Below are positions 9,511-58,721 of a stretch of DNA of 64,000 nucleotides, one piece after another. The notes beneath the pieces are model-generated. The model was not told the origin of the DNA and did not search any database. It was given only the letters and a program-made list of their open reading frames with translations. The first letter of the stretch is position 1, and each line of letters begins with the position of its first letter. Source of the stretch: Dudresnaya verticillata (lineage: Eukaryota); contig OZ374559.1 of assembly GCA_977862235.1 (NCBI GenBank), positions 930,001-994,000 on the forward strand, written 5' to 3'. A program made the translations under genes and the position numbers.

Positions 9511-9539
9511 GAAAATCCGAAACCGTAACGAAGTGCAGC

Positions 9540-11010: not shown

Positions 11011-11013
11011 TGC

Positions 11014-12560: not shown

Positions 12561-13159
12561 TACTCCTTTGTGCCTGGCTTTTTGCTACCGTTAGTAGCAT
12601 CCTTATCCAGACACTTAGCAGTTTCGATGATATATTTGGCAGAAAGCTCTTCATATACATCTGAATAGGCGTCCGAGGGCACCTGATGGCGCTTGGCCTC
12701 AACACGAGTCTCGACGAGCTCCGCAATTTGGTTGGCCTGGCTCTGTCCTTTGCTGAGAACAGTCTGAAAGTGTGCAGTTCGCATCGCCAGAACCTCTTTG
12801 GCACCACCGAGACCATCTTCGATGAGGCCCAGCAAGCGAGACTGCTTCTCTGGATCCGAGTCCGCTTTGATAAGTTCGAGCGCAGCCTTGCACTGCTCCA
12901 GCCAACAACCCGCTGAATGGATGTACTCGAGTTCCTTAGCGTTGCGCCGGTCCTTTCGGAAGGTCTCCAAGTACAGTGTCGTTTCGGGCTTGAAATATCC
13001 GACCTCATTCGGTAGAACGAGGCTGTAACGCGGCCACAATTCCTTGCGGCCAAACATACCGGCAGCCAGCTGATGATAAACAACATCAACATAGTCACCA
13101 GATGACGGGGGCGGGACAGAGACGAAGGTGGCTGTTTCGCGTACATTTTGGTCGGTCAT
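12560..13159 (-). CDS. ORF1 (gag-like) of the DIRS-like element, 199 aa
   Basis: Intact ATG ORF between repeat A1 and RT. Its stop overlaps the RT ATG. The gag label is positional only. Confidence 0.65.
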   Translation of the reverse strand: MTDQNVRETATFVSVPPPSSGDYVDVVYHQLAAGMFGRKELWPRYSLVLPNEVGYFKPETTLYLETFRKDRRNAKELEYIHSAGCWLEQCKAALELIKADSDPEKQSRLLGLIEDGLGGAKEVLAMRTAHFQTVLSKGQSQANQIAELVETRVEAKRHQVPSDAYSDVYEELSAKYIIETAKCLDKDATNGSKKPGTKE

Positions 13160-13218
13160 TGAGGTCTGAGCGGTTCACCTGTCCAACGGGACGGAAATCC
13201 TTTGTTCAAAAGTATCTT

Positions 13219-13491
13219 GAGAACGAAGGAAAGAACTTAGGGGAGACGGAGGGGTTGTCTAAGCTGGACTGTAGTGCTTATATCCCTTCCAGAACCTCTA
13301 AATTTGGTAACACCATATGGTTCAGCCCCAAACAGTGAAGTGCCAAATATAGTGCTAAACGTTGCACAGACCCGTAGAAACCCCTTTCGGGTAGATGTTC
13401 TATCGGGTTGTTGCTGCTTCAGGACGCTCGGCAGGGCCCGCTATCCCCAGTGAGGTCTTTTCACCAGTGTAGAAGCATCGAGACACAAACT
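13219..13491 (-). repeat. Direct repeat copy A1 (5' terminus) of the DIRS-like element
   Basis: Matches 9238-9510 and abuts the host sequence. Confidence 0.95.
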
Positions 13492-19116: not shown

Positions 19117-20846
19117 ATGGTTTTACATGAATGATTTGACATTCATGAATGTCGCATAAGGTAGGGAGTTTGTTTGTTTCCACACGCCGCTCAACTTTGG
19201 GCGCATTGTGCCGGCGATGTTTTTGCGTCGGGCGGCGGGCGACTGTTGATCTGTTGCTTTTGTTGTTCTTGTTCTGTCTACCCATTCCTTTACTAGTCGC
19301 AGCGACCGGCGGCTTATATACGCTCGGACCTATTACTTATTACAACTCATTACAAATAGATCTATTCTATTTCTATTTCTTATTTTGTTTTAACTAATTG
19401 ACAGTGTTGCTATAGTTCTATAACCCTTACTATGATTAAGGTCTATACAGCACAATTATACTACAGTGGAACCCCGATAGCTGCAACCAATCGGGAGATG
19501 GGCCCTGTTGCAATTAGCCGGATGTTACCCTAGAGCGGGAGGTGTCGTAACTTTCTTAGTACCTCTTTGCGCTTTATTTGTAGTATACTGTACCTGCTGT
19601 ACCGTACCATCACAGAACTGTCCACAATCCGTTGTAATCTAACAGTGGATATCGATTTTGGTCTGTCTCAAGCGCTCTACGCAATGAAGACGCAGTATAC
19701 ACTCTTCAATTTGTTGACAGCATTAAACATCCACTATCAACGGCTCCATTCAGACTAGAAATGCGCATTGCTGCGGAAAGAATTCGTACCTGGTCCGCCA
19801 CCGAAGGTAAAAACATCTCCCCCTCCTCATCGGACAACTGTTCTTCGATAACATCACAAGTGTTTACAATAGTATCAACATGTCCCTCATCCCCGTCCTG
19901 CTCGGTGCAGGCCTCCTCGCCAGCTGGGTTTAAGAGAAAGGCGATGCTGAAATCACGGTCACTAGGAGGAATAGCCTGAACTGTGCTTCGAAGTTGCTCT
20001 CTATCGCTTCTCAAGAGAGAAGAAATTCCCATAACGTTGACAGGTGATGAAGCAGGTGCCCTTCTCTCACGGAGAATGCCAGTATGCACCCAGGAGTTTT
20101 GAATGAATTCAGATGGCAGTTCGTTCCAAATCATTTTGAAAGACCTCGTATCAGAAAGAAGATTCAGTTTGTAAATGTCTCTTGCTCTCTCCTCAAACAA
20201 ATCAAGTACACGGTTCATTTGGTGTCGTCGATACCGCAGCTTCATCGCGGTGATGATCCCAGCATCAAGGGGCCCAACCTTGGATGTAGTATTCGGAGGC
20301 AAAAATATAACTTCAACGTTGCTGATGTCCAGGATTGTTTCCTTGGTCCCATGGGCACTACAATTGTCAATTAGTAGGGCAACCTTCCTTCCAGGCGTCT
20401 CCGCAATGCACGAATTGAAACGAAGAAGCCATTCGAAAAATATATGACTCGTCATCCATGCCTTTGAGTTGGCGTGGCAGTCAAAACCAAGTTGCGCGCC
20501 TGCCATTTTTTAAAGACCCGCGGGCGCCAAGCCTTTCTGATGACCATCAACTCAGTCTTTTCGAAGCCGTCAGCATTACAGCGTGGCAAAAATGTCAACG
20601 TGTCCTTTTGCCTCTTTCGCCGGGTAACCATATTCCGCGATTGTCGTGTCCGGTGCAAGCTTGTAAAATAATCCGCATTCGTCTGCGTCAAATATGTCTT
20701 TCCATGTGTAGGCTTCAAAAGATTTCTTGATAGACGGAAGAGCTTGTTGTAATCCTTGGACGTCTGCATCCCCACCCTCGCCATGGGATTTGAAGAACTT
20801 TAAACCCCATCTGTGTTTAAGTCTGTCAAGCCATCCATTTGAAAAG

Positions 20847-21786
20847 TGTGGTGCAAAGGGGAACCCGGCTCTTGTTCGCTGCGAGCGGGTTACAACAAGA
20901 ACGTCAACCGACGATATCGCCAATGGCGCGCTCACCGGCCGTTGGCGCGAGCACGTCGTGGACGTACGAACGGCTCACCTGCGTACGCACAGCGCATTCG
21001 GCGGCTCACGCGCGCACGAGGCGCACTGTACGGTGTTACACGTGGACCACGAGGCGCCGTATGCCAGCCAGGACGCGATCCGGATAGGAGGCATCGGGAT
21101 CAACGGTGGTGTAAGACTACGAGTCTGTAAGGATGGCTCGGATCTAGACGCGATCCAGATCGGGGATCGGGATTGGGCATCAGGATCTACACCGATGTAA
21201 TGTGCGTGCCTGTGAAGCCAACGCGCTCGTAATGGTGGCGCAAATCGGGATTAGGATCGAGATAACCACACTGCCACCCGCCCGAACCTGTAAGGGGCAC
21301 CTGGCCACGTGTCTGTGTAAGCACGAGTACAGGACGTGGGAGACAAGTCTCTCAGAGGCCTGGCTGCACCGCGCGGCAAAACTGTCAGACGCATCGCAGC
21401 ACAACACGTGTCCTGGGTTCCCGCTCGACACTCCCGGCGCCCGCGCGAGTGATAGTACATAGGTAACCCGTCTAGGATGCCGGAGTAAATCCCTGCAAGC
21501 CGGCTCTGGTCCATATTACACCTTCCGCGGCACGCGTACCTATCCATTGGCCTCAAAGATCACGCGTCTACCTCCCGTGCATCCACAATCAGCCCCCGTC
21601 GTCGACGTGTCTTCTTGCTTTTGTTCCCTTTTGTTCTTCCTTTCCACCTCGGGCGTTTATAGTCCGCCCAAGGTATGTCAACCGCTCTACCATTACCGCC
21701 TAAGCCGAGGCTCACCGCCTCAGGCGTCACTACCCACCGAGCTCCGAATTTCTCGGCGGTGTTTCGTCCAGGACGTTTGCACTACA
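20847..21786 (+). repeat. Solo LTR related to LTR A (940 bp)
   Basis: TGTGGTGCAAA...TTTGCACTACA termini, TSD AAAAG on both sides. Removal restores the transposase sequence. Confidence 0.92.
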
Positions 21787-21915: not shown

Positions 21916-22673
21916 TGTGGTATAGACGCTGTGCGCAAAGCGACTCCGTGGTCTACGCGAAAATAGTCGAGACATATGATTCTTAAAGTGACTCCGTGAA
22001 TGCGCACACCAAGATGGCAAACGTATTACAGTGCGCATAATGTGCGCGCGCCGCGATGGAATTCGCATTAAAGTGCGGAACGAATACGAAATCGCTGAAA
22101 CCTCCATGTTTTCCCCGTTCTTTCCTGGTCGAAAGGCTCCGAGGCCCACAACGCGCGTGCACCTCCGTATACAATGCACGCGCACTTCGTAACCGCGCCC
22201 ATACGTGAGAGACCGTTAGTTGGCACCGAGGCCGTTGCGAATAAGTCGAGTACGAACCGTCTCCCGTTGTGACGTGTACTAGTGCTCACATAGTAGTACG
22301 TAGACAGTCGTCTGGCACGACCTCCTAGGTTTTCCGGTAAGCGCCTAGCGCCCGGACCTCGCAGTTTTCGGTAAATTCCTCTTGCTTCGAGTTAGGTGTG
22401 TTCGTGTTCGTGAACGTGGATGCGGTTGAACCTCGCTTTTGATAGCCCCGCGCACCCGGAATCATCCCCGGTGATCGATTGCTCGAGTTCTCAATTCCGC
22501 GCAGGAATACGTTGACACCGTGGTCCTTCGCGTCGGTCGCTCCCCTCTACCATGCTGCCACCCCTTCCCTTTCTTCGTTTTACCTTAGGCTACGAGGCCA
22601 CACGTTCGGCGGCGAGATCATCCCTTACAGTGCGAGACTTTCCTGGGGCTCCGTGGACATTCGTTATACCACA
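21916..22673 (+). repeat. Solo LTR related to the element B LTR (758 bp)
   Basis: TGTGGTATA...TATACCACA termini, collinear with 31167-32009, flanked by AGGA on both sides (4-bp match). Confidence 0.9.
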
Positions 22674-30213: not shown

Positions 30214-31166
30214 TCGGCGTGAATGGGCCATATCATGAAATGACGGAAAAAGCGGTCATTTTCGCCTATGAGTCTCAGTCTCAGGAATATGTCATGACTG
30301 CTTGGTCTCGATGACATGAGCCGTAGTCACTCGCGCTTAATTGAAATATGGAACTGAATGACAAAAGAAGCATTTATCCTCAGATGGTGCTCAACGCCAA
30401 TAGCACTGAGTCAACAAATACTGCAGTATGCGTGCAGTATGCGCGATATCTCGCATACGTATCTGGTGCTTGTATTTGTCTGCAGACACATGTAAATGTA
30501 TCATTGGCATATTGGCAAATGAGGGCTCAGGTGTAGTAGAATGACTTCTAAGTCAACGAGGAGAGCAACACAAAAAGACAGCTGTCTTAGAAGACACTCC
30601 ACTGTGTGGAAGGTAGCTCGGTAAAAGGGGTTGGTAGAGACTTGATAGGGCTTAAAGCCCTAAGAAGAGGGGAAAAAGGAAGGCGAACTCAGCCGTGTAG
30701 AGCAGTTCGTCGTAGACGACGGGGCTTGTAGACGCCCAAAGGGGGTTTGTAGCGGTAGCACTGTAAGTATCCAAAAAGGGGAAAACCCAAGGCACAGACC
30801 GCTGCCGGTTTAGTGCCGGGCCCCTGCTACTCAGGGGCCCCATAAATACAGAGAGAGCCGAAAAGGTGCTACTCGCTCAGCTAGAGCTCTATTGCTAATA
30901 ATTAGCTAATACTGTACAATACAGGTATGATATTTCCTTAGATAGGAATGACTGGTCTGGCCACAAGGCGAGCGCGGTGCCACTGTCAGGCGCCGCGGGG
31001 CAAACATCCGCCAGCAATGCAGGGCGCGATGATGCGGTCATAGTTAATCCCCAAATGGCATAGCGCCATCTCACCCGGAGCAGTTCGCCTTACAGATTAA
31101 AGCTGTACACGTGTTGCCTTACAGCGCAGGGGCGCTTCAGCAATTAAATCAATCTGTAAGCCAGCC

Positions 31167-32009
31167 TGTGGTATAGACACTATCCGTGAAACGACTCCGT
31201 GGCCTACGTGAAAATAATCAAGAAATACGAATTTCGAAATGACTCCGTGAATGCGCACGCCACGATGGCAAACGTATTACAGTGCGGATACTGTGCGCGC
31301 GCCACAATGGCATTCGCATTACAGCACGCACGTGATACGAAATCGCTGACACCTCCGGGCGAATCCCGAGCCGACTTCGTGATCGCGCGCGCCACGATGG
31401 CATTCGCATTACAGTGCTCACCTGATACGAAATCGCTGACACCTTCGCGACTTTCCCGTTGTTTCCCGCGCATAACGGCACCGGGGCCCACGAGACACGC
31501 GCACCTCCGTATGCATCGCTGGCGCACTTCGCAACCGCCACCATACGTGAGGCGACCGTTCGTTGGCACCGAGGCCGTTACGAATCATTCGAGTACGAAC
31601 CGTCTCCCGCGTTGACGTGCATTCGTGCTCACGTAGTATTACTTAGCCAGTCGTCTGGCACAATCTCCCACGGTTTCCGGTAAGCGACTAGCGCCCGGAC
31701 CTCGGAGTCTTCGGTAGACGCCTGTTTCTTCGAGCTCGGTGTCTTCGTCTTCGTGACCGCAGATCCGGTCGAGCCGCGCTTTCGATAGCCCCGCGCACCC
31801 GGAGTCATCCCCGGTGATCGATCGCTCGAGTTCTCCCTTCCGCACACGAATACGTTGACACCGTGGTCCTTCGTGTTGGTCGCTCCGCTCTACCACGCTA
31901 CCACCCCTTTTCGTTTCTCCGTTAGGCTACGAGGCCATTCGTTAGGCTCCGAGGCCATTCCTTACAGTGCGAGACTTCCCCGCGTCACCGTGGACTTCGT
32001 TATACCACA
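31167..32009 (+). repeat. Left (inverted) LTR of element B, 843 bp
   Basis: Reverse complement of 43090-43932 over its whole length, with a few percent substitutions by eye. Confidence 0.95.
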
Positions 32010-32652
32010 CTGCGAACGTCCCGGTCGCGGGTTACGAATCACGAGTTGGCGTGGCCCGGTTTCCCTCGGTGGAGCGGGGATGGAGCCATCCGAGTGGCGG
32101 CGCGGAGATTGCTTCGAGCTCACGTCGTCGGGCAGCAGTACCTCGGGGCTTACGAATTTGAATTCGGATCACGTGTGCGATGGCGCCTTCGTATTGGCTA
32201 ATCACGAGGATTTTTTTGCGTACGTAGAACGGGCTAGGGCTGCGGCGCCGTCCGTCGACGCGCGCGCACGCGGATCACGGAGACGGGGCGCCAGCCGCGT
32301 GGGTGATTTCAACTTCGTGTTGCGCTGGGTCCGAGCCCCTTGCGCCTTCGGTCAGCGCGCTCACACACAACTCGCTTCAGCTCCTTGGCTTTCGGTCTTC
32401 GCGGTCCGTTTGCTCCTTCGTGTGCGCTGGTGCGTCCTTTCGCGTCTCTTCTCGCATCGTTCGCTCCGCTCCGTGGCGTTCGTGTTGTTGCTTCGTTGGC
32501 CTCGGTGGTTTGCGGTGGTCGGTTACGGGTCGTGGGTCTCGGTGTTGGGGCAAGTGCGGCTGGTCCTCCGTGGATTACGTGAGGGCCTCTTCGAGATTCG
32601 CGTTCGTTCCTCCGTGGGTTTCTGTGCTTTTCGTGACGAGCTTCGTGTAACG

Positions 32653-34598
32653 ATGTCGGACATGGGTCACGAAGAGGGAACCGGGTCCCAGGAAAAACGT
32701 GCGGAGGGCGTTCGTCGCCGCCTCGATGGCGAGCTCGCGGCTGCTACGGCGGGTCAGTTGGCTCCGAAGCCTTCGGATCCTTCTTCGGATGTCACGGGCT
32801 CTTCGGGTGGGGACTCCGAATACGTACCGCGGACTCTCGCGATTCCAGACGTTGTGGATATCGGTGCCTCCAAGTCAGCGGGGATCACGGATCGCGATAG
32901 TCCTTTCGTAAGTTCGGGCGGCTCGAATCCGCAATTCGTGAATCGGGGTTGGCAGCCGAGTTCTTCGTTGGGTCCTCCGAAATTCGGGACAAAGGATGAG
33001 AGTGCTCCGAGGCTTCCGTCTGCGCAGCTGCACTTCGCGTGGGACGCGTTCGCGGTCTCCGGAGTTACTCACGAAGAGGTTGCTGCGTACGATGGCCGTG
33101 TTCGTCCGGATCTCGCTCGTTTTCGTGCACTGTGCGAGGGTCTTGATGATAACGGAGCTGGCGTCTTTCACGTATTCTGGCCCCGTGGCCCCGTGTATCC
33201 GACTCCGATGGGTCTTCCGTGCGACGTCTCCTACGTGACCACGGTCGACGAGGTTGCTTATGTAGATGCATGCGCGCACGTGCTCCTGGCGCCGGGTGCG
33301 GGTATCTCCGTGGACTCTCCAGTGGCTGCGATTACTCGCTTGCGTGATTACCCGGAGTTCGAGTCCGCCGCGGGAAACGTATGGCGTCACGTAGACTCGA
33401 TTTCGCGCATCCTCGGAGTGCACATCGGTGCCGGAGACTGGGCACTATTCCGTGGCGCGGGCTCGATGCCTGATCGCGTGGATACGAATTCGCGTCTCGA
33501 TGACCGCGTGCCTCTGAGCATGTTTGCGAGTTCGTTCTGGCTCGATGCTTCGTGTATTCGGGCCCCCGCGGCCTTTGTCGTGCCACCTCCGAGGGTGATT
33601 CGTTATTTCGGGCTCGTGGTCGACCTGTTCGCGGAACCTACGAAGAAGTGCTTCGTGCGTTTCCGGGATTCCGAACATCGCTTCGAGCTTGGTCGCGCGT
33701 TGATTTCGGATGTCACGCAGCGTCAATGCGTATGGGTACTCGATGCTTCGTTGCGTAGTTTCGTTCGTGATCGTTGGTCGAAGTCGTTCTCCGAGGATGG
33801 CGGGTATCCGGATCTTTCGCTCCGGGGCTCGGATCGCACGATGCCATTCACGAAGATACTCGCGATCGCCATCGAGGATGCGGATCGGAGGGAGCTCCAG
33901 TCGACTCGTCGCGATTTTCCGACGGGACAGTGGTCCCATGTGTTCAGACCCGACGTGGGCTCCGGGGCCTGGTTCGATTGGCGCCACAACCGTCCGTCAC
34001 GAGGAGGGCGCGGTCCGCGAGTTGATCCGTTTTCGCATACGAGTGCCGCGGTTTGTGCCATCGGGGGCGAAGTGGGTCCGTTGCCGCGCGTTCCTCGTTC
34101 TGTAGCTCCGGTTCCTTCGTCGTTGCTGACTCCGGGGTCATCTCTTGGCACCGGGGCTGTCGCGTTGGTGCCGAGCGCTTCGGGTCTTCGATCGCGAGTC
34201 TCGAGATGCGCTGTCCTACGGATATTCGCAGTCTCGACTCCGTGAGCGATGCGTGTCGCGAAGCGGGTATCTCCCCCTATGGGACTCTTCGACAACTGCT
34301 GGAAGATCTCGGCGGAAGTTTCCTTCGCGCGGTTACAGAGGTGATTCGCCTTCGTAGGCAGCTTCGTGATCGGGATGCGGAGATAACGGACCTTCGTCAT
34401 CGTATTCGGGACCTCGAGTTGAGCGGTAAGCGTCGGCGCGAAGATTACGGTTACCCGAGTTACGATGCTCCGCGTTACGGGTCTGGCTCCGGAGGCCCTT
34501 CGGGCTTCGGACCCAGCGGTGGCGACGGTTACGATGGTCACCGCGGACAATCGCAGACATCGGATCCGTATGCGCCGAACTTCCTTCGCGTGACTTGA
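32653..34598 (+). pseudogene. Antisense accessory ORF of element B (one frameshift near 34150-34200), with C-terminal coiled coil and Gly/Tyr-rich tail
   Basis: ATG at 32653 within ORF 31855-34245, continued by ORF 34053-34598 (EVIRLRRQLRDRDAEITDLRHRIRDLE, GKRRR). AATAAA at 34991. Confidence 0.7.
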
Positions 34599-35949
34599 GA
34601 TGAAAACGGGAACGATCCTCGTGATAACCCGCCTTACGACTCCGCAAACCCGTATGGTCGCTCGTAATTGTACGTAGTGTGAGCACCGAGTCTTTCTCTT
34701 TTAGCTTCGTAGCTGCGTGGTTTCTCCTTTTCGGTATCGAGCTCCTTGTTCTCGGAGCTCGCGGTGGCGGGGTCTCGGTCTTGTGGTATCGTCTCGAGTA
34801 AACGTTTTTCTTTTTCGACTCTTCTTTGCCTCGTAGTGATAGTCACGTAGTTGTCAGCATCGTAGCTTTAACTTCGTAGCTTCTCGCAAACGAGCTTCGT
34901 GCTCAAGTGTGTGAATCTGGAACTTGTTCGTGGCGCGGCTTCATTTTTCTCGACTCCGTGGCCTACGTGATGCGTGTGACGTCGATTACTAATAAAATTA
35001 CGTGTGTTTCCTTCGCGGAGTTGAGTCATCGAGACTTCGTGAGATATGCGTGCACGGTCCCCTCCTCAAGACGAAGGTGTCCGCGCCAACGTGCTTGGGG
35101 GGTGGGTTGCGGATACGCGCTCCTCGGAGAGTTGTGCGGGTGCTGCGAGGACCGCGCAGGGCATGTCGCGTGAGCTCCGGGGCTGTGGCGGGCGAGCTGC
35201 TTCGGGGGCGCATCGGTGCGGGCGGAACGTTTTCGTAATGGGGCGCTGAGGCCATGCGAGAGACTCCGTGGTCGTTGCGAAGGTGCGTCGTAACAGGTGA
35301 GCTCCGTGTCGCAAGTGAGGCGCGGGTTGCGAAGTAGAAGTGCGCGTTGCGGGTGGCATCGGCCTTGAAGTATGACATCAGGCGTGTATGAAAAGTTGCG
35401 TATAGTTCACCGTGTCCGTCCGTCGCGGTGTCAGCTCCTGTAATGCGAGTGCCGCGGTGCAACCTTGTGCGCGGATGAGCCAGTGTCGAATATCACGAAG
35501 CTCGTGGGACGCAGTGTGTGTCCACCGCCGCAGCGGTGGGGGCGCCCGTCGCGATACCGGGGGACGCTTCCGACTGCGTAAGAAGCGACTTCGTGTGGGC
35601 ATCGTGGCGGACGAATCGGTGAGCGCTTGCGGAAACGGTGATGCGGAGTGGGCTTCGTGATGCCGTCGAGGGCTGCGTTGTGATGTGCGGGGTGGCGGGC
35701 ATCTGCTCCGAGGCATCCGTGTGTGTCGGGGCTGTGGTTCGTGCGCGACGAAGGCGCGTCGTGAAATAAGGAGTCGAGTATCTCGAAGTTGGGCCGCGAG
35801 GTGAGCCGAGCGGCACTGGGCGATCGGATGCTCCGAGGCAATCGAAATGAGCAGCTTCGTAGTCAGCACGTAGTTGGAGAAAGCTGAGTGTGGCTCCGGG
35901 GCCTTTCGAGTGGTGAGCACAGTGCGCCGCGCAATCCGGGTGAGCGGGA

Positions 35950-38900
35950 GCGTTAATCGTGTGACGAATTGCGGAGCACGAAGTCGGGGCCACGGAACCA
36001 CTCGGGGTCCCAGTCGGAGAGCCATTCGTGGGCGAGTAGCACGGGATCACGCGGGTCTGCTTGGATTCGAAGCCTTGCGAAGTAGCGTGAAACGAGTTAT
36101 TTGGGCACGTGCGTACTAAGTTCCCACGTAGGCGTCGCGTAGCCGTCCCACTTGATACAAAACACGAATTTTCCGGCTTCGTCGGTCGAGTGATCGAGGA
36201 TGCGATCGACAACGTATTCGGGCCTTCGGTGACCTTTTCCGCAATGTCTTCGGGTCGCGTAATCGACGGTCGCGAATTCGTATGTGGTGGCGCGTAGATG
36301 CAGCGGTCCGCGGAGACGCGTTCAACGAGACCCTTGCTATCGATCACGAGTGTACGCGTGTCGTTGAAGAGCACTTTGTACGGCCCCTCCGCGGGGGATT
36401 TCAACTTCGGAAGTTTCGTTTTCCCATCGTGGGTATCGAGGTATACGTAGTGTCCGGGTTTGGCGCGGCTCTTCGTGTGGCGGATGCGCTTATCGAAGTC
36501 GCGTTTGTAACGGTTTTGAACTCGCTGTAACGAAGTGCGTGCGGAGTCGATGGCGAAATCGAGTCGCTTAACGAAATCGTTGCGAAGGTCCTCCGTGGGT
36601 TTTGGTCGATGCTTTTGGGAGCGCTGGGTCACAATGAACTCGGGCGGCGGTCGCGATAAAACGAGATTGAACGGAGTTGTCTTCGTAGACCGATGAACGT
36701 GGCAATTGTACGAATACGTTAACGCGGAGACATAGCGGTCCCAATCGTTTTGGTGGTCGTTCACGTAGTTACGAAGCATCACGAGGATAGTGCGGTTATA
36801 GAGTTCGGTTTGTCCATTCGTTTGCGGATGATACGCGGAAGTGAATACGTTCGATAACCCGAGTAAGCGACAGACGCCCTGAAAGAACTTCGAAGTAAAC
36901 TGTTTCCCGTTATCCGAGAGCACCGAGGCTGGCGGTCCATACTTGAATATCCAAACTTCGCAAAAGTAACGGCCACGTGATACGTGGTTATTACTCGTAG
37001 TGTGGCCACCTGGGTCAACTTCGTAAAGCGATCCGTAATCACGAGGATGAACTCGCGTCCGGATTTCGTTCGTGGTAACGGGCCTAAGATGTCAATCGCG
37101 ACCGATTCGAGTGGGCGCGTAGCGGGGAAGAGCTTCAAGCGATGAAGATTTCTTCGGAGACGGATTCGATTCCTTGCGCAATGTTTGCAATTGCGAACCG
37201 TGGATGCGATATCGGCTATCATGTAAGGCCAGTAATACGTTTCACGAAGCGAGTAGAACATACGATTTTGCCCCGGATTGCCAGCGAGTAACGAATGATG
37301 CGCCAGCGTGAGCAAGCGAGGTCGGAGCGTCTCGGGCAATACGATTTGCGTGAGCTTCGGAATCATTGGGTGCGTTCGTCGCAGGAGACCATCTCCATCT
37401 TCGTGAAAGAGACTATCCTTCGTTTTCGATTGTCGTGATTGCACCGTTTGGCAGAACGAATCAATACGTTGTCCTTCGAGGATTTCGGTTACCGTAATCG
37501 GCGCATGTAGGTCCACGGGTTTCACGTCGGTGAGGTCACTCGTTCTTCGTTGGGATCAATTCGATAAAGGTCAAACGGATCATCGTCATCGATATCGTCC
37601 CATAAATCGCAGTCATCGTAGACATCCTTTTGTCCTGCGTATTCATCATGTAGTTCTGCGTCGTGTTCGTGTTCACAGCCTTCGTGGCACGTATGATTGT
37701 GGGGTTCGGAACCCGGGGTGACCGCCGTGGATCGTGGCGTATTGCCTGCGCGGTGTACGCGTTTCGCGGGTGTAGTCTTTCGCGTAGAGTCGTGGCGAAT
37801 CGCGGTGGTCTTCGATTGACGTTTGCGGGAGCGCGTAGTAATGAGAACCGGGTCTCTTTCGTTTTCGATGGTTTTCGTGATGTCGTTGCGGAAACGTTCT
37901 TCGTTCTTCGCTGCGATTTGATCCGAGTCAAACGTAGGTACTTCTTCGTCGATTGCGGGTTGTTCGCGATGCGGAAGTAGCAATCGTGAGAGGGCATCGG
38001 GAATCTGGTGGACGCGACCGGGGCGATATACGATTTCGAAGTCGAATTCGGCTAAGCGAAGCCTCCATCGCGTGAGTCGCCCGGACGAATCGGTAAGGGA
38101 AAGAAGCCATCGGAGCGCATCGTGGTCCGTAAGCACGGTGAGCCGGGTCCCTTCGATATACGGACGCAACAAAGTAACCGCCCATACGACTGCGTAGCAT
38201 TCGCGCTCGGTTGCGGAGTAGTTCTTCTCGGCATCGTTTAACGAATACGACCAGTAGCCCACGGGTTGGAATTCTTCGTTATCTTGCTCCTGTAGCAATG
38301 CGCACCCGAGTTGATACGCAGACGCGTCCGTATCGACAATTTAACGTTTCCCGAGTTGCGGTAACCGGAGTATCGGTGGTGACACGAGCTTCCGTTTGAG
38401 CGTTTCGAATGCGGTAACCTGATCCTCCGTGGATTCTCGTAGCCGGGATCCGCATCCTTTCGCGTCATGTTCGTCAACGGTCGCGCAATTTTCGCGAAGT
38501 CTTTCACGAATCTTCGGTATACGTTACACGCGCCGAGGAACGAACGGACTTGCGTGAGTGTCTTCGGGAACTTCGCGTATCGGAATGCTTCGGAGCTCTT
38601 CTCGGCCATACGCAGCTTCCCCGGGGAAATTACGTGTCCGAGATAGTCGACTCGCTTTCGGAAAAGGAAGCACTTCTTCATCTTGAGCGAAGCGAAACCC
38701 CGGAGTTACGAAGTAGCGTGAAAACTTGATCGAGATGCGCGATGTGTTCACGAAGATTCGCGGAGAAAACGATCACGTCTTCGAGGTAAACGAGACAGCA
38801 CTGCCAACGGACTCCGGATAGAATGATGTCGAGTGCGCGTTGAAACGTAGCAGGCTCGTTTTTCAATCCGAAGGGCATACGAAGATAACGATAAGTTCCG

Positions 38901-40576
38901 AGAAACGAAGTAATAGTAGTCTTATCGCGGTCTTCCGGGGCAACCGGAATCTGCCAGTACCCACTGTTACAATCGAGTGTCGAAAAAATCGAAGCGTCTC
39001 CGAGTGAATCGATACAATCTTCCATCCGGGGAAGCGGGTACGCGTCGGATAGTGTCTTCGTATTGAGTCTTCGATAATCTACGCAAAAACGAAGTGTTAC
39101 GTCTTTCTTCGGTGCAAGGACTACGGGGGACGCCCACTCCGAGGTGGCTGGTTCGATTACTCTGGCTTCGAGCATACTGTCGATTTCGTTACGGACGATT
39201 TAACGTATTGTGGGCCTTTGACGATAGGGCATCGAACGAATAGGTCAAGTCCCGGGTTGTAGATCGATCCGATGCTCCGTGGCTGCGATCGTTCCGAGGT
39301 CTCCGTTCCACATCGATTCGTGCTTATGTAGCATCTCGAGGACCTCGTTTCGCATAGTTTCATCGGGTATGTTCGAAAGGTCTACGCGTTCTTCCCAATC
39401 GCGGGAACTCGAATTGGCTTCGGCTGCTGCAGTCGCGGCGCCCTTCGTGAGCGGTTTTTCCTTCGTGGATATGGATTCTTCGGGTGACTTCGAGTCGTCG
39501 TGCTCACGTAGCGTAGAGATGTTGAGCACCTTGGCAAACGAATCCGCGACTTCACGATCGGGTGTCAAAATCGCGAGCGGGTTTCGAGCTGCGTATCCGA
39601 TGACGGTTCCCTTCGGTAGAGCTCGAGGCTTATCCGTGAAGTTCGCCATCAACACCGAAAACTCGCGATTCGGACTGACTTCGTGTATCCCGTTCGTTAA
39701 CCGTACTCCGTGTCGGTGTTTTAACGAAGGCTTCGGTTCGATATGATTTAGTCCGAGGGCTTCCGAGGTCACGGTGACTAGCTTCTGCGAATAACTCGGT
39801 ATGGTGCCGCGGCGGTTCAAACAAATGGTACGGGTATCTCGGTCCCAATCGTGGAGCTCACGTTGGTGTCGCTGCGATAGCGTTTTCTCGAATTTCTGCT
39901 TCGGATTTTTCGAATTAGTAGCGGGTGGAGCCGATCCAGCAATGCGGTTGAAAATCGGAATCGTGCTTCCACTCTTCGTGATGAGCCTCCGTGGGCTGAG
40001 CTCGATGCTTCGTAAATGCGCGTCCATCCACGAAGTTCCAAGGAGAACGTCGACTGCGAGTTTCTCCGCAACCACGAAGGGTACGCGGTATCGAACGTTC
40101 CCAAGGCGGACTGTCAGGTAAACGATTCCATCGAGTCGCAACGGGGTGCGATCAGCGGACGCGAGCCTCGGAGCTGATTACATCGTGGACGCGTTCGCTT
40201 CCCAACCGGTGGGTAACGCAGCCCGGGCTATTAGGTTGTAACCGGAACACGTATCGACTGCAATCGTATGCGGCGTCATTACGGAGGCATCGAGGCCAAT
40301 GGATCCGGTCACGAGGAAGATCTCCGAAGTCATCAAGCAAACGTATCCCTCGGTGGTAACTTCGGATTCGATCTTCGAGATCGGTATCCTCTTCGAATTG
40401 TTTTCGCACGAAGCATCTTTGGCGAGGACTCGACATCGCTTTCGGTCTCGTCGTCGTGCGGCGCGCTTCCTTCGCATCGCAGCGGCTCTCGGAATCGGAA
40501 TACGCGGAGTGTCTCGGGGAACGGATTCAGACGAAGTACGTGACACAACGGGCGTCTTCTCCTTTACTCGTTTTCC
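35950..40576 (-). pseudogene. pol of element B (protease, RT, RNase H, integrase, chromodomain), multiply frameshifted
   Basis: AVDTCSGYNL, LRFCVDYRRLN, LDCNSGYWQI, YLED (variant of YLDD), NYSATERE, TDH, AIDILGP, SDNG, PQTNGQTE, EGPY. Chromodomain YVVDRILDH...KWDGY...TWE near 36120-36220. Confidence 0.95.
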
Positions 40577-43018
40577 GAACTCGAACTAGAATCCGAATTG
40601 CAAGCGTCCGCGTCCAATGGGGAGGTTGATCGATCACCTCTTCCGTTGTTCGCGGAGTCTTCGTAAGCCTCCGAGGGCAGGTTCGGGTGACTTGGCTCAA
40701 TCGCGTCAACATTTTCACGGACTGTGAGAACCTGTTGACGGCCCGGGGCCTGCGCGTGTCTCGGATTGCGGAGGACGGTAGGCGGCCCTCGACGCTCAAA
40801 GCTGACTTGACGCTGGGCTTGATCCCTCGGGTAGCGCGTATCGCCTTGACGAAGATCTCGGTTTACGCGATTGTCACGCGATCTTCGGGGGTCTTGTCCA
40901 CGGTGACCTCGATTGTCAACGGATGCGAACGAATTCCCTCTTGCGGCACCGCGATTCACGAAGTTATTACGCGTATACGGTCTCATCTCGAGTTGATAGA
41001 GATAGTTCTGATACGCGCAGTAGAGTTGTTGCTCCTTCGTGAGATACGGACACGAATAAATCAGGTGACCGATTTCGCGACAGAACCAACACGGCCACGC
41101 ATCCTGGTTCTTCGGGATCATCGAACGCGCTATCTCGATTTTCTCCGGGGTCATCAGGGGGACACGCGCGGGTACGAAACGCTCGATGCGACTCGTGAGA
41201 TCTAACGTATCGTCCACGGAGACCGTTGTCGAAGTAGTCGGTCTAGCGGATGTGGACCCGGTTCCTGAACGAATCATCATCACGGCCATTTGCGGATCTT
41301 CGTTCATCGGTTACTCGTATTCACTCCCGGGAGTGTCGCAAGCTTCGATAAGCATCGTGCGTCTGGGCGCTTGGCGACTCTTCGGGTACGTAGCGGACGC
41401 TCGGTTCTTCGAATCACGCGACTGTTGGGCCGCGGTGTCACGTAGTTCGCGAGCTAGGAATGTCGTGCCTTCGGCTTGCGCGATTCGTTGCACGCTCATA
41501 AAATTCTTTTGCTCGGACAGCGGTAGGCGTCGTACCTGGTCGGCCATGATAGGATACGTAGTAGGTAGTAATCCACGAATAAACTGGTGCGTTAACGAAG
41601 AGTCATCGTAGAAACCGGAGCAGATATCTACGTAGCCTTGCAAACGAGTCGCGAACTCCATCTCGGTTTCATCGGACTTCTGTTTCGCGGTTATCACGCG
41701 ATCGTGTGCGTCTGCGATTACGTCTTCAGTGAGAAATCGTTGTAGTAACACGTTCACGATCGCGGACCAGCAAACCGGGTTGCCCGTACGATCGCCTCCG
41801 AAGGCATAGTGTTGATACACCTTGAGCGCGGTCTCATCGAGAAACCACAAAATCGTATGAACTGCTGCTCCTTCGGTGAGCCCGACTCCGTTCAACGCTT
41901 GTCGAATATCACGAAGAAATGCGAGAACCTTAATCGGATCGCGTCCCGTAAACTTCTCCAGTCTCGGCATCATCGAACGCATGCGCGAAACGGTTTTCGA
42001 CGTGTTACCTCGGAATACTTCGTGTTGGTTATCCCGGGGTGACGAATTCGTGAGTCGATACGATCGATAGCTTACGGCCCGCGCGAATTCGGGAATGAGC
42101 GTCGCGAATTCGCGCGGGCCGTAAGCTATCGATCGTATCGACTCACGAATTCGATGACACGGGTCCCGCGAGCGCTAACGGATTTTCGATTACGGGTCCT
42201 CCGGGGGACATAGGTGGTTGAAGTGAAGCTCGGAATACTGCGGGGTTGATACGGGGGTTGTCGGAGGCATCGGTTGCCTGATTCGATAAGGGGTGCGGGG
42301 ACTGATTCGGATACGTGTTTTGCGGTAACGTAGATTGGGCACCCGGGCCTTGCACGGGTTGAACTAGCGGCGAATTGCGGGGGTCAGGACGGGCTTCGGG
42401 ATGACCTTCGCGACTTCGAGACTTCGGTAACGCTGCGGACACGATGTCACGAATAGCGTTCAACTGTTCCTCGGAGAATGCGTGCGAGCTGCGAACGGGA
42501 AGCGAGTGACTCCCCTTGCCCACGGGGGCGGATACGTTGCGCTCGAGCACGAGAAACCGATTGCTGACTCCCGAGACGAGATCCCGGAGACTCTCGAGTG
42601 AGTCTTCGATCCTACGGACCTTGCCAGCGCGGAGATTGTTGAACTCTTCGTGAACTCGATTGTGTGTATTACGGATTGAAAGCTGCGTGATACGGTACGC
42701 GGTAGAAAGCGCATCGATGACCTCTTCGTAGAGTAAACGTAGTTCTGAACCGGAGACTTCCTTAATCGAGAAGAGTCGATCGACGGTATCCGAGGGAACG
42801 ATTTCCAACGGAGTGTACGTATACGAAAGGTCGGACTGGCTACCGTAAGCCTGCGAACGCGAGTCTGTGCGAAGATCGGGTACCGTTATTCGTGAAGCGC
42901 GAGTGCGAGAAAACGGTTCTCGGTCACTCGCATTCGAGTCGAACAACGGGAGCTCCGGAATCGGTACGTCATCGGATTTCGGTACCGGCGAATCGGGGCG
43001 CCTCGGAGCGTGAGACAT
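40564..43018 (-). pseudogene. gag of element B with CCHC zinc knuckle, broken by a 49-nt inverted duplication and a premature stop at 41311
   Basis: FTGRDPIKVLAFL and EGAAV align with gag of element C. Knuckle CWFCREIGHLIYSC. Confidence 0.9.
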
Positions 43019-43070
43019 CGTGTCTCGGATAGAAACGAATTAAGAATAAATGCGAAACTTCGGGACCACG

Positions 43071-43088
43071 TTCTAGGTCGGGAGACCA
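43071..43088 (-). promoter_or_regulatory. Primer binding site of element B (probably tRNA-Tyr)
   Basis: TGGTCTCCCGACCTAGAA begins 1 nt after the 5' LTR and is identical to the PBS of element C. Confidence 0.9.
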
Positions 43089-43089
43089 G

Positions 43090-43932
43090 TGTGGTATAAC
43101 GAAGTCCACGGTGACGCGGGGAAGTCTCGCAGTGTAAGGAATGGCCTCGGAGCCAAACGAATGGCCTCGTAGCCTAACGGAGAAACGAAAAGGGGTGGTA
43201 GCGTGGTAGAGCGGAGCGACCAACACGAAGGACCACGGTGTCAACGTATTCGTGTGCGGAAGGGAGAAATCGAGCGATCGATCACCGGGGATGACTCCGG
43301 GTGCGTGGGGCTATCGAAAACGAGGCTCGACCGTATCCGCGGTCACGAAGACGAGGACACCGAGCTCGAAGAAAAAGGGGTTTACCGAAGACTCCGAGGT
43401 CCGGGCGCTAGTCGCTTATCGGAAACCCTGGAAGGTTGTGCCAGACGACTGGCTAAGTAATACTACGTGAGCACGAATGCACGTCAACGCGGGAGACGGT
43501 TCGTACTCGAATGATTCGTAACGGCCTCGGTGCCAACGAACGGTCGCCTCACGTATGGTGGCGGTTGCGAAGTGCGCCAGCGATGCATACGGAGGTGCGC
43601 GTGTCTCGTGGGCCCCGGTGCCTTTATGCGCGGGAAACAACGGGAAAGTCACGAAGGTGTCAGCGATTTCGTATCGGGTGCGCACTGTAATGCGAATGCC
43701 ATCGTGGCGCGCGCGATGATGAAGTCGGCTCGGGATTCGTCCGGAGGTGTCAGCGATTTCGTATCACGTGCGTGCTGTAATGCGAATGCCATCGTGGCGC
43801 GCGCACAGTATGCGCACTGTAATACGATTGCCATCGTGGCGTGCGCATTCACGGAGTCATTTCGAAATTCGTATTTCTTGATTATTTTCACGTAGGTCAC
43901 GGAGTCGTTTCACGGATAGCGTCTATACCACA
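43090..43932 (-). repeat. 5' LTR of element B, 843 bp
   Basis: TGTGGTATA...TATACCACA termini, followed on the minus strand by the PBS and gag. Confidence 0.95.
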
Positions 43933-44693
43933 CAGCCATATCACCCGGGCGGTGGTGCGCCTGTCATTCCTTACAGAGGACTCGTGTCCACGCGGCTCCT
44001 TACAGGCCGTCAACGCCCGTTGTACCACATCAGGTGCAAACATGCAGATGCTGTGCCGACTTCAACTTATCATCACATCATGCACACATCAGAATCGGTG
44101 ACATGACATTGAGAAGCAACGGAATAATTTCATTGTCAAACGGTCTTTAAGCAAAAGATTGGTTTCAAGTTGATGAGCATGCGGTAATATGTATCGGAAA
44201 ATGTTTATGTCTGTGGCCGCAATTTCAGGTTGGCCTGTCTCATAGTGGGTTTATTATTGAAACAAGTTTTGTTTTACATCGTGAATCGATGCCCTCTTCC
44301 GCCCCCGTCCTCGAGTGAGCGACGACTGATAAAGAGTCTCGCCTCCCACCGACCCTCGGCGGGGTCGCTCAGAGCGGCCAAACAAAGGGGTGAAGTCCCC
44401 CTGCCATAACTGACATCCTAAAATATCATTAAATCTAAGACATACGCCAACATCAAATCACTCGCGATCTGGCGCCAAAGACAAATGCGCGCAATTATAA
44501 AGGAAAAGTACATAAAGGGCGCAATACGAACCCGTTCGTATTGCGCTGCACCCCTACCCTGGAGAGCAATCCGGACGAAATCGACGCTGGCGCACCAGCC
44601 AGGGCCACTGACGTAAGCGCGTTACTCGCCCGGCCTGTCGGCGCGAGTACGACACTGTATGACAAATTCCTATAGTGGACACTCCGTGCGTTG

Positions 44694-54992: not shown

Positions 54993-55718
54993 TGTGGTAT
55001 AACGGGCGTTGACGCCCTGTAAGGAGCCACGTGGACACGAGTCCTTTGTAAGGCATGACAGGCGCACAATTGCCCGGGTGATACGGCTGGTGCTCCGATT
55101 GATTTCATTGCTGGAACGCTCCCGCGCTGTAAGACAACACGTGTACAGAGTTGGTATGTAAGGCGCACTTATCCAGATGATATGGCACTGTGCCATTTGG
55201 GGATTAACTATGGCCGCTCCATCGCGCCATGCATTGCTCGTGGATGTTTGCCCCGCGGCGCCTGACAGTGGCGCCGCGCTCGCCTTGTGGCCTGATCACT
55301 CATTCCTATCTAAGGACATATCCTACCTGTATTGTACAGTATTAGCTAAGTATTAGCCATAGAGCTCTAACTGAGCGAGTAGCACCTTTTCGGCTCTCGC
55401 CGTATTGATGGGGCCCCTGAGTAGCAGGGGCCGGGACTAAACCGGCAGCGGTCTGTGCCTTGGGGCTTCCCCTTTTTGGGCGCTTGCGGTGCAACCGCTA
55501 CAAATTCCCTTTGGGCGTCTACAAGCCCTGTCGTCTACGACGAATTGCTCTATTCAGCAGGGTTCGCCTTTCCCTTTTTCCTTTGTCAGGGCTTTAAGCC
55601 CTTTCAAGTCTCTACCACCCCTTTACCGAGCTACCAACCACGCGAGTGGGATCGCTCTTTGAGGACAGCTGTCGTGCCGTGTCGCCGTCTCTGTTGGCTT
55701 CAAAGCCATTCTACTACA
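54993..55718 (+). repeat. Intact solo LTR of family D (726 bp)
   Basis: TGTGGTA...TACTACA termini, TSD GCTAC on both sides, homologous to the split copy at 30532-44029. Confidence 0.93.
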
Positions 55719-56358: not shown

Positions 56359-58220
56359 TTATTTACTTCCAACAGAGATTCTTTGCAAGCACTCATTTTT
56401 GCAAGATGCAGCCAGCTCGAAAATCAGGCATAATTTAATGCACTGAAATGCACCCGTTGTTTACTTCGAACTGAGGTTATGGAGCATGGTATGACATCTT
56501 GTGAGCAGTGTGAAGTGGAAGACTTGTCGTGTAGGAAATGCTAATACAATGACACCCCGTTGTAAGCGTCCTGCACTATGTGCATAACCGCGCTATGTGC
56601 ATACTGAACCATTCTACCACCGAAGAACCTGCGGTTTTGAGCCATATAAGTATACACCCCGCATACCTGCATAATGCATACAGAGCAGAGAAGAAGCCTT
56701 ATTTTCTGATTAATATTTGGCCCGCTAGTATACCGCCCCCGCTAGTACGCCAAAATGCACAATTGCAAAAGTTTAAATAATTGAACACCCTTGCTTGTTT
56801 CACACAAGCTGTTCAAGAGTCCAACTCAAACGGCGCACATACTCTCCTCACCAACTCAGCAGGTGCTGTGACAGTTCTTCAGCAGCAACAAGGATGGTTC
56901 CTAACGCCTCAACAGGAAAGCAAGCGCTCACTCTTCGTCAGAAAAGGCTTATTCTTGAAGAAAATAGTAAGAGAAAGAATGTGAGAGGAAACGCGACGCA
57001 AACAGCACTTGCCAACCCTTGAAGAGCTCGGTCGTGAGATTGCTGGTCTAGATGACGCAGTCGTTGTGGATACAGATCCCGATGTGCCAGAAGAAGAGGA
57101 TACACAGATACTCTGTCAGTCGAGCAGGAGCTACTCTGTCTCGCTCAGGCTCGTTCCATCCTCTACAAGAATGATATCGTCTGTGACGCAGCCTGAAAGG
57201 CTTTTACAAGTGTCAACGCTCTCTAAGAAGGGAGAAATTCCATGAAGCAAACAAGCATCTCAGACCACTTTTCGAGGAAATACAGAAGTTGTTGTCTAGC
57301 CCTCGGCAATTGCATACCCCCCCATAAAAGCATAAAGAACCTTTCTCCCAACTAGCATGCTTACAACAGGGGTTCACTGTAGCGGGAGAGCCTTCTTCGT
57401 GAACAGATTGGTTGTTCACTTTACAGCGACGCAGTATATCTGCATGAGCAATCTGTGCATGGATCGCCAGCGTTTCTCTCTGTCTACCTGTAGACTTCTA
57501 CAGAGCTGTAGCGCTATGCCTCCGCAAGTATACATATTTAAAGTCGAAGACTGACGATTATTTTTGCCAAAGACGAACAAGTGAACCATCCTCACCTCAC
57601 CAAGTTTATGACTTGTTCTATACAGAGCACGGGTAAAACAGCACTGCATCAAAGCTGCACAGGGAAGAAGCAGCAATTAATCCACAATACAGACTATTCC
57701 TCCAGACTATTGGTGGTAAAGCGGAAAGTTAACATAAGTCAATATGAGTCTAGAGAGGCACGGAACATCTGGAGGGAATTGTGTGGCCTATATGAGTAAT
57801 GAAACCTGATTAACATGGTTAACATGGAGCACAGGTCAGTGTTGCAATAGAATGTTAAGCACCAGCTCCGCGAATTGCAATTCACGCGCGAGGTCATGAG
57901 TATTTTCCAAGGCATCTTGGTAAGTAACTTCAGAATTCAGGAATACCGCTGCAGCAGGGACACAAATCGCGTCCAGTAGTCAGAAAACTCCTTCTGTCCC
58001 TTACGCGAAGCTATCCCATCAAAGAGTGCATACATTATGTGAGCTTGTTAATCATTTTCAAATGGTGTTGGATTGACGCAGTCCGTAAGGTATCTTTCAT
58101 GGCGTCTGCGTGTTATCTAGTAGATATACAGGCTTCGCGTCCAACGCAAAGGCTAAGTCCTACAAGTCTAAGGGGAAAAAATAAACTCGGTCCTTTTGCT
58201 CAACCAGAACAAGTTCTACG

Positions 58221-58721
58221 ATGTTCTCAGTTTCAGTCTTATTGGTGTTCTTCATTTCGATTCTAGTCGGGCACCTGTCCTCGGCAAGCTCCGTCGGGGG
58301 GTTGATTCCAAACAAGAGCCACCAACTGAAGATCCCTGTATATGGCAACCACTGCGGGCCCGGTCATGGAAGCAAAACGAAGCCTTGTATAGACGAGACG
58401 GACTGTGCGTGCAAGCGCCACGACAGCTGCTACGATAACTGGACAGTTTTCAAGAGAGGGCAGCTATGCAAATGCGACGCCGACCTGATTCGCGAACTTC
58501 GAGGAAGTAAGCGACCGGAAGCGGTGCTGATATACAAGTTTTTTATCTTGCTGCCGTGCAGATACCCCAAGGATGAGAATGATATGTACCCCTGCAAGAA
58601 ATGCCGCAAGACGTTCCTCGGAAAGATTTGTGTTTGGTCGATATGCATGCGCAAGAAATGTGTTAATGCCTTGACGTTTAGCTATAGGAAAAAGATGTCA
58701 GTTTCTAGGGTGAAGTGCTAG
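58221..58721 (+). CDS. Secreted phospholipase A2 (plant group XI-like), 166 aa
   Basis: Hydrophobic signal peptide, Ca-binding loop YGNHCGPGHG, catalytic DCACKRHDSCY (His-Asp), CKCDADL, Cys-rich, intact ORF. Confidence 0.9.
   Translation: MFSVSVLLVFFISILVGHLSSASSVGGLIPNKSHQLKIPVYGNHCGPGHGSKTKPCIDETDCACKRHDSCYDNWTVFKRGQLCKCDADLIRELRGSKRPEAVLIYKFFILLPCRYPKDENDMYPCKKCRKTFLGKICVWSICMRKKCVNALTFSYRKKMSVSRVKC

What the first reader, a model, noticed from the sequence alone, without database searches (positions are those of the whole stretch)
31162..43937. Gypsy/chromovirus element with inverted LTRs that integrated as one unit
Seen: two 843-bp LTRs face inward (31167-32009 on +, 43090-43932 on -), so both outer ends are the LTR 5' (U3) end. 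The same 5-bp CAGCC flanks both sides. The uninterrupted paralog of the host solo LTR (about 55074-55105, reverse strand) has CAGCC only once, so this is a true TSD. No PPT lies next to the inverted LTR, unlike elements A and C. Established: the standard two-strand-transfer mechanism makes direct LTRs, and inverted termini are a DIRS-1 trait linked to tyrosine recombinases, not DDE integrases. Inference, three options: (a) a lineage replicating with inverted LTRs, one driving gag-pol and the other the antisense ORF; (b) concerted integration of U3 ends from two cDNAs followed by end joining (both LTRs are followed by CTG on the inside, i.e. the first PBS bases); (c) later inversion of the LTR via its 9-bp terminal repeats.
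Basis: partly seen in the sequence, partly recalled or inferred. Interest (0 to 1): 0.92.

Follow-up and report, generated by a model that had tools for sequence, protein, structure and literature searches.

The report
Retrotransposon fossil with one LTR flipped
A dead Ty3/gypsy jumping gene sits in a single 5-base insertion scar with its two end repeats facing each other, likely because a short by-product of reverse transcription was joined on backwards exactly where the second-strand primer site belongs; it is likely a one-off accident, not a new kind of element.

Summary
Two 843-bp LTRs (28 mismatches) face inward, CAGCC flanks both ends, and the empty paralogous site has it once. Inside is a decayed gag-pol with DDE integrase and chromodomain, an 18-nt PBS and an antisense ORF.

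The junction is informative. The flipped LTR carries CTG (spacer plus two PBS bases). A motif lying 21-25 nt before the 3' LTR in 7 of 11 direct-LTR relatives lies only 7 nt before this junction, so about 15 nt, the polypurine tract, is missing.

Best reading (0.62): an LTR-length plus-strand strong-stop DNA was joined backwards at the PPT. The 9-bp terminal inverted repeat then let integrase use two U3 ends.

A replicating inverted-LTR lineage is unlikely (0.08). Among 91 related loci, 18 have long direct repeats and none has inverted termini, the antisense ORF family occurs in direct-LTR elements, and no RNA of this layout carries U3 in sense. No genome or reads were available, so copy number is untested. 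A 20-nt internal copy of LTR sequence is unexplained.

The parts
31162..31166 (+). Left target-site duplication CAGCC
31167..32009 (+). Flipped LTR (in the place of the 3' LTR), U3 end outward, 9-bp terminal inverted repeat
32010..32012 (+). CTG shared with the PBS side of the other LTR (spacer plus first two PBS bases); junction
32017..32022 (-). RRGACG motif that precedes the PPT in direct-LTR relatives; here 7 nt from the junction, PPT absent
32653..34598 (+). Antisense ORF of unknown function, likely one frameshift near 34200; family shared with direct-LTR elements
34951..34970 (+). 20-nt exact copy of LTR positions 26-45, between the converging genes; unexplained
36100..36234 (-). Chromodomain (Pfam Chromo 28.1 bits, cut-off 25.1)
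36240..37501 (-). Integrase: H2C2 zinc-binding domain and DDE core, split by a frameshift
37880..40342 (-). Protease, reverse transcriptase and RNase H, broken by stops and frameshifts
40987..43039 (-). gag region (Retrotrans_gag, E 3.4e-5), broken
43071..43088 (-). 18-nt primer-binding site, identical in element C and in five contigs of G001; likely tRNA-Tyr
   Evidence: tRNA identity inferred from recalled C1:G72/A73 rule
43090..43932 (-). 5' LTR in normal orientation to gag-pol
43933..43937 (+). Right target-site duplication CAGCC
30532..31161 (+). Host solo LTR, left part (continues 43938-44029; own TSD TCAGG)
54993..55718 (-). Uninterrupted paralog of the host solo LTR (empty site; own TSD GCTAC)
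21916..22673 (+). Solo LTR of a related subfamily, 84% identical, same 9-bp terminal repeat, 4-bp flank match

Best explanation
This is a single, now dead copy of a chromodomain-bearing Ty3/gypsy retrotransposon with inverted LTRs inside one 5-bp target duplication, likely made when an LTR-length plus-strand strong-stop DNA was joined backwards to the cDNA at the polypurine tract (PPT), giving a molecule with two U3 ends that the integrase likely inserted as one unit. Shown: inverted LTRs, TSD with empty site, PBS, CTG beyond the flipped LTR, no PPT, 9-bp terminal inverted repeat. Inferred steps: (1) the parent was an ordinary direct-LTR element; (2) repeated PPT priming left a spare strong-stop DNA ending just past U5, in the spacer and two tRNA-templated bases (CTG); (3) the plus strand stopped at the PPT primer or gap and was joined to that untrimmed U5 end, either by a reverse-transcriptase template switch before integration or by host end joining after it (these cannot be told apart here); (4) because U3 and U5 ends share 9 bp, integrase accepted two U3 ends. 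The product lacks a PPT and would be unable to replicate by the standard route.
For: TSD with exact 5-nt overlap on the empty paralog. Both outer ends are exact LTR starts, with a 9-bp terminal inverted repeat. The inverted match runs exactly 3 nt past U5, CTG. RRGACG lies 21-25 nt before the 3' LTR in 7 of 11 direct-LTR elements (background 1.6-3.2 per kb in the 9 loci counted) and 7 nt before this junction. A matrix built from those 7 ranks the junction site 4 of 11,071 positions; leave-one-out ranks were 1-4 for 6 of 7. 18 of 91 related loci have long direct repeats, 0 of 91 have inverted termini. The PBS is identical to that of direct-LTR element C and of L087, which has PPT, LTR and PBS in standard order. 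The antisense ORF profile hits element A (E 6e-5) and L078, which have a PPT-preceded 3' LTR and direct LTRs respectively. Invariant codons changed in pol: 6 of 148 (4.1%) against about 3.8% expected from LTR divergence (my arithmetic), so the LTRs look as old as the insertion. In Ty3, PPT recycling makes displaced strong-stop DNAs, the second ending at U5, and dead-end copies accumulate in particles (PMC5371799, passages). Ty1 integrase needs little more than terminal TG-CA (PMC2939329, abstract).
Against: No member of this element's own family was found outside the window: relatives are 59-73% identical in RT protein (90 of 91 loci; one is 41%), so copy number is untested. The motif was spotted by eye with this element in view, and 4 of 11 relatives (A, L016, L078, L087) lack it at that distance. 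A 3-nt match (CTG) arises by chance about 1 time in 64. The dating test is noisy: element C gave 4 of 153 (2.6%) against about 0.9% expected. A 187-bp mismatch-free run in the LTR pair (p = 0.022) could reflect later gene conversion. The 20-nt internal LTR copy is not explained by this model. The solo LTR has only a 4-bp flank match.
Confidence: 0.62

Rival explanations
1. Post-insertion templated rearrangement: a normal element inserted, and later its 3' LTR and PPT were replaced by an inverted copy of the 5' LTR during break repair, using the 9-bp terminal repeat outside and CAG inside as microhomologies. Includes the first reader's option (c) plus a deletion.
For: It keeps the TSD. Both needed microhomologies exist. 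A 52-bp, 98% perfect fold-back in gag (42043-42153) shows that template switching has touched this element.
Against: A plain inversion would keep the PPT, which is gone. The inner breakpoint would have to land at the PPT edge by chance. Decay of pol matches the LTR divergence, giving no sign that the LTR was recopied much later, though that test is weak.
Confidence: 0.15
2. A heritable lineage with inverted LTRs, one driving gag-pol and the other the antisense ORF, replicating without a PPT and perhaps using the internal 20-nt LTR copy as a DIRS-like complementary region.
For: The layout would give each gene an LTR promoter. The 20-nt match is beyond chance: the longest match in 1,200 Markov simulations was 18. 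It equals the left LTR exactly, and no match over 15 nt was seen in 13 other elements. The own family could not be surveyed.
Against: 0 of 91 related loci have inverted termini. The antisense ORF family sits in direct-LTR elements. Neither LTR-driven RNA would hold U3 in sense, so tRNA-primed strong-stop DNA would have no acceptor (reasoning from the standard mechanism). The 20-mer is not terminal, unlike the DIRS ICR (PMC7192593, passages). A related solo LTR is most simply made from direct LTRs.
Confidence: 0.08
3. Autointegration origin: integrase joined the processed U5 end into the element's own DNA just upstream of the PPT, as in inversion circles, and the product was later inserted through its two U3 ends.
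For: Inversion circles with an inverted segment between the LTRs are documented in retrotransposon particles (PMC7197481, passages). The junction falls right after the terminal CA.
Against: The CTG match to the PBS side would be coincidence.
Confidence: 0.07
4. Two whole cDNAs each gave a U3 end to one concerted integration and were then trimmed and end-joined.
For: It explains the U3/U3 ends and the TSD. Template-switch composites inside one TSD are known (PMC1950507).
Against: One arm must be cut to 3 nt past its LTR and the other at the PPT edge, which are the natural ends of a strong-stop intermediate. No excess LTR divergence pointing to two donor copies was seen.
Confidence: 0.05
5. Assembly error flipped the left LTR.
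For: No reads could be laid on the junctions.
Against: The LTRs differ at 28 scattered sites, the window has no N, both flanks fit the empty site exactly, and the join rests on 3-9 nt overlaps with loss of about 15 nt, which overlap assembly does not readily make.
Confidence: 0.03

Closest known systems
Ty3/gypsy (Metaviridae) LTR retrotransposons with a chromodomain integrase
   Same: Gene order PR-RT-RH-INT-chromodomain, DDE integrase, TG...CA LTRs, tRNA PBS, 5-bp TSD.
   Different: The LTRs are inverted and the PPT is missing in this copy.
Template-switch composite insertions (Sabot and Schulman 2007, PMC1950507; abstract and passages seen)
   Same: A malformed cDNA made during reverse transcription is inserted as one unit with a TSD.
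   Different: Those join two elements around a third LTR; the passages seen describe no inverted LTR. Here one LTR is flipped at the PPT.
DIRS-1 (PMC7192593, passages seen)
   Same: Inverted long terminal repeats around gag and RT/RNase H.
   Different: DIRS-1 has a tyrosine recombinase and an ICR that repeats the outer ends of both LTRs side by side. This element has a DDE integrase, PBS and TSD, and only a non-terminal 20-nt internal match.
Retand, Grande, RIRE2 and other gypsy elements with an antisense ORF between pol and the 3' LTR (PMC11963269, passages seen)
   Same: Antisense ORF of unknown function in the same position.
   Different: Those are non-chromovirus plant elements, mostly with a TRP28 domain. 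This ORF has no Pfam match and belongs to a separate family.
Autointegration inversion circles (PMC7197481, passages seen)
   Same: Aberrant particle products with an inverted segment between the LTRs.
   Different: They are extrachromosomal dead ends; this one is chromosomal with a TSD and two clean U3 ends.

Membership tests
Ty3/gypsy LTR retrotransposon | pol order protease-RT-RNase H-integrase | tested here: met
   protease seen by tblastn alignment only, no Pfam hit on the 54-aa piece
Ty3/gypsy LTR retrotransposon | DDE integrase with H2C2 domain | tested here: met
   split by a frameshift
Ty3/gypsy LTR retrotransposon | tRNA primer-binding site after the 5' LTR | tested here: met
   18 nt conserved in C and five G001 contigs; cognate tRNA gene not seen
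Ty3/gypsy LTR retrotransposon | 4-6 bp target-site duplication | tested here: met
Ty3/gypsy LTR retrotransposon | Direct LTRs | tested here: not met
   met by relatives, so this is read as a malformed copy derived from the group, not a regular member
Ty3/gypsy LTR retrotransposon | PPT before the 3' LTR | tested here: not met
Chromovirus clade | Chromodomain at the integrase C-terminus | tested here: met
Chromovirus clade | RT groups with reference chromoviruses | not tested
   No curated references in the tree. Brown algal chromodomain gypsies lie outside chromoviruses (PMC12477816, passage), so the domain alone does not decide.
DIRS-1 group | Inverted terminal repeats | tested here: met
DIRS-1 group | Tyrosine recombinase in place of integrase | tested here: not met
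   DDE integrase present; no recombinase hit in 14 ORFs of the element scanned
DIRS-1 group | ICR repeating the outer ends of both LTRs | tested here: not met
   Longest internal match is 20 nt to LTR 26-45, not terminal
Heritable inverted-LTR lineage | Several copies of the same junction with different TSDs | not testable with these tools
   No genome held; no run listed

The most novel reading that the evidence does not exclude
A DDE-integrase retrotransposon lineage that has switched to inverted LTRs, dropped its PPT, uses one LTR for gag-pol and the other for its antisense gene, and rebuilds its U3 ends by a DIRS-like route involving the internal 20-nt LTR copy.
Probability: 0.08. Interest if true: 0.9.

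Novelty: new variant of a known kind. Interest (0 to 1): 0.36.

Why it matters
If the best reading holds, the junction is a readable fossil of PPT recycling and dead-end strong-stop DNA, steps studied mainly in yeast Ty elements. It would show that such by-products can be integrated through two U3 ends when the LTR tips are symmetric. Finders that look for direct LTRs would miss such copies, so their rate is unknown and could be counted. Convergent LTRs could also yield double-stranded RNA against the whole family (inference). If the lineage reading held, it would be a new replication route for integrase retrotransposons.

Tried and rejected
No genome held. No sequencing run was listed for 30300-36000, which is no evidence either way; no reads were laid. 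Viral contigs gave nothing for the PBS pattern, the RNase H ORF or the RT alignment. The word-indexed search found no homolog of the antisense ORF among 7,992 candidates; the HMMER search found 14. The ESM Atlas did not answer in five tries. My idea that the junction cuts a hairpin shared with element A was rejected: 96 of 300 shuffles scored as high. Three antisense-ORF contigs in G001 end before any LTR, so they say nothing on orientation. The antisense ORF looks less decayed than gag-pol (no stop, one likely frameshift in about 650 codons), but about 2 stops are expected, so this is not significant (my arithmetic). The bacterial promoter scan does not apply to a eukaryote and was not used. 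No tRNA gene in the window. The RT tree is the quick version; the careful search did not finish. Nine literature searches listed no paper whose title or abstract start describes an integrase element with inverted LTRs; most hits were seen as listings only, PMC8786324 (one mention of an inverted LTR) was not opened, no supplements were read, and subscription journals and Repbase are not covered.

Full report
Observation. Self-comparison of the window gives one long inverted pair, 31167-32012 and 43087-43932, 846 nt at 97%. The LTRs proper are 843 bp, begin with TG and end with CA, and differ at 28 sites (15 transitions, 13 transversions) without indels. The extra 3 nt are CTG. CAGCC flanks both ends. 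The element sits in a solo LTR of another family (30532-31161 plus 43938-44029, own TSD TCAGG). That LTR has an uninterrupted paralog at 54993-55718; the two flanks map onto it with an overlap of exactly 5 nt. The TSD is therefore real and no host sequence is lost.

Contents. On the minus strand the right LTR is followed by one spacer base, an 18-nt PBS, gag, and pol in the order protease, RT, RNase H, integrase, chromodomain. Six in-frame stops and about five frame changes lie in the aligned parts and the RT catalytic motif is altered, so the copy is dead. The PBS is identical in element C and in five contigs of G001, and conservation stops at 18 nt. Its complement has the C1:G72 pair and A73 that I recall as eukaryotic tRNA-Tyr identity; this is inference. 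An antisense ORF runs 32653-34598 on the plus strand.

Relatives. In a quick RT tree of 122 rows, this element and C fall in a clade of 74 rows (SH-aLRT 100) with metagenomic proteins, most of which carry a chromodomain. An RT alignment fetched 80 loci (best 80 of 576 confirmed) from metagenomes and 11 from genome bins; 52 of the 91 are at least 7 kb. Eighteen have direct repeats of 50 bp or more over 4 kb apart (five are circular contig overlaps, one is a nested tangle). Two short inverted matches turned up, 31 bp inside the LTR pair of L035 and 25 bp in the distant L090; none is an inverted terminus. These are distant relatives, 59-73% identical in RT for 90 of 91, not this element's own family. 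In the window, C has direct LTRs, a PPT and a TSD, and A has a PPT before its 3' LTR. A profile of the antisense ORF and its 14 homologs hits the antisense ORFs of A, L078, L082 and L008 at E 6e-5 to 3e-4 among 4,988 ORFs. The antisense gene is thus older than the inversion and does not depend on it.

The junction. In 7 of 11 direct-LTR elements, the hexamer RRGACG ends 21-25 nt before the 3' LTR; A, L016, L078 and L087 lack it there. The 11 were chosen one per apparent family among those whose LTR start I could place; L032, L076 and L067 were left out as family duplicates, and L055 and L061 could not be placed. Here the motif ends 7 nt before the flipped LTR; it occurs 16 times in the 11,080-nt internal sense strand. 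A matrix from the seven relatives ranks that site 4 of 11,071, about a 1% chance of falling in the last 25 nt (my arithmetic), with leave-one-out ranks of 1, 2, 2, 3, 2, 454 and 4. I noticed the motif by eye with this element in view, so the figure is optimistic. Taken at face value, about 15 nt are missing, which is the PPT itself. What replaces it is the LTR read from an end that runs 3 nt past U5.

Mechanism. For Ty3, a review describes repeated priming from the PPT: the first plus strand runs 12 nt into the tRNA, the tRNA is cut at or near its junction, the second strand ends at U5, and dead-end strong-stop DNAs accumulate in particles (PMC5371799, passages). A strong-stop DNA made after incomplete tRNA removal would end in the spacer plus two bases, which is CTG here. 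A plus strand arriving from pol would stop at the PPT primer. Joining those two ends gives this layout with no further assumption: PPT lost, CTG kept, exact U3 tip outside. The join could be an RT template switch, or host end joining after integrase took the U3 end of the LTR piece. The LTR tips share 9 bp, and Ty1 integrase accepts foreign DNA ending in TG-CA (PMC2939329, abstract), so two U3 ends are a plausible substrate. All of these steps are inferred. Composite cDNAs inserted within one TSD are on record in cereals (PMC1950507), and aberrant strand transfers are common in HIV-1 proviruses (PMC12657518 and PMC9278108, passages); none of the passages seen describes this exact product.

Dating. 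Six of 148 codons invariant in 71 relatives are changed here (4.1%). Half the LTR divergence times about 2.3 replacement sites per codon (recalled) predicts 3.8%. This fits LTRs that were identical at insertion and not recopied much later. The test is weak: C gave 4 of 153 against about 0.9% expected.

Against my reading. The family's copy number is unknown. A 20-nt stretch at 34951-34970 equals LTR positions 26-45 (left LTR exact, right one mismatch, solo LTR two). The longest match in 1,200 Markov simulations was 18, and 13 other elements showed nothing over 15 nt. It is not terminal and so not a DIRS-type ICR (PMC7192593, passages), but my model does not explain it. The solo LTR at 21916 has a 4-bp flank match only. 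A 187-bp identical run in the LTR pair (p = 0.022) may be gene conversion. A hairpin-truncation idea failed its shuffle test.

Earlier notes of this scan (8 of 14 shown) report U3/U3 inverted-LTR insertions in algal, fungal, fish and octopus genomes, mostly read as accidents. They are unchecked AI notes and I could not test them; they suggest the error recurs, which lowers surprise. One pointed me to PMC1950507.

Verdict. A real and unusual structure, most likely a one-off reverse-transcription and integration accident whose junction maps to the PPT edge. New variant of a known kind; interest 0.36. The lineage reading stays open at 0.08 until the junction is counted in the genome.

Noticed in passing
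window 34951-34970: 20-nt exact copy of LTR positions 26-45 between the converging pol and antisense ORF, about 20 nt before an AATAAA on the plus strand. In a direct-LTR parent it would be complementary to the start of U3 in the genomic RNA and could loop out the antisense ORF.
   Followed up: partly
window 42043-42153: 52-bp inverted repeat, 98% complementary, 7-nt loop, inside gag near a frame change; possibly a fold-back template switch.
   Followed up: no
window 31167-43932: CpG observed/expected is 1.6 in this element and 1.45 in the related solo LTR, against 1.0 in element C.
   Followed up: no
window 9238-13496: Element with 278-bp direct repeats at 97% and a weak tyrosine recombinase hit at 9543-10103 (E 1.7e-4, below cut-off); possibly a decayed Ngaro/PAT-like element.
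   Followed up: no
L016, L029, L035, L041, L076, L078, L082, L084, L087; window elements A and C: A marine chromodomain-gypsy clade with the RT motif TLDCNSGYWQ, long antisense ORFs after pol and a conserved RRGACG before the PPT; no named description was found in the searches run.
   Followed up: partly
L081-L089 (G001-G003): Bacterial genome bins hold retrotransposon contigs, several at high coverage, that look like eukaryotic contamination.
   Followed up: no
window 58185-58718: ORF with a phospholipase A2-like domain (PF08398, E 1.1e-4, just below cut-off).
   Followed up: no
window 31884-31904 and L096 1383-1403: A 21-nt LTR motif identical between this LTR and a distant relative's LTR; a shorter core is visible in the LTRs of A, C and the host solo LTR.
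   Followed up: no
window 21289-21786: LTR related to element A's (74% over 420 columns) with no evident TSD.
   Followed up: no
window 19709-20509: DDE_1 transposase fragment (E 5e-30).
   Followed up: no
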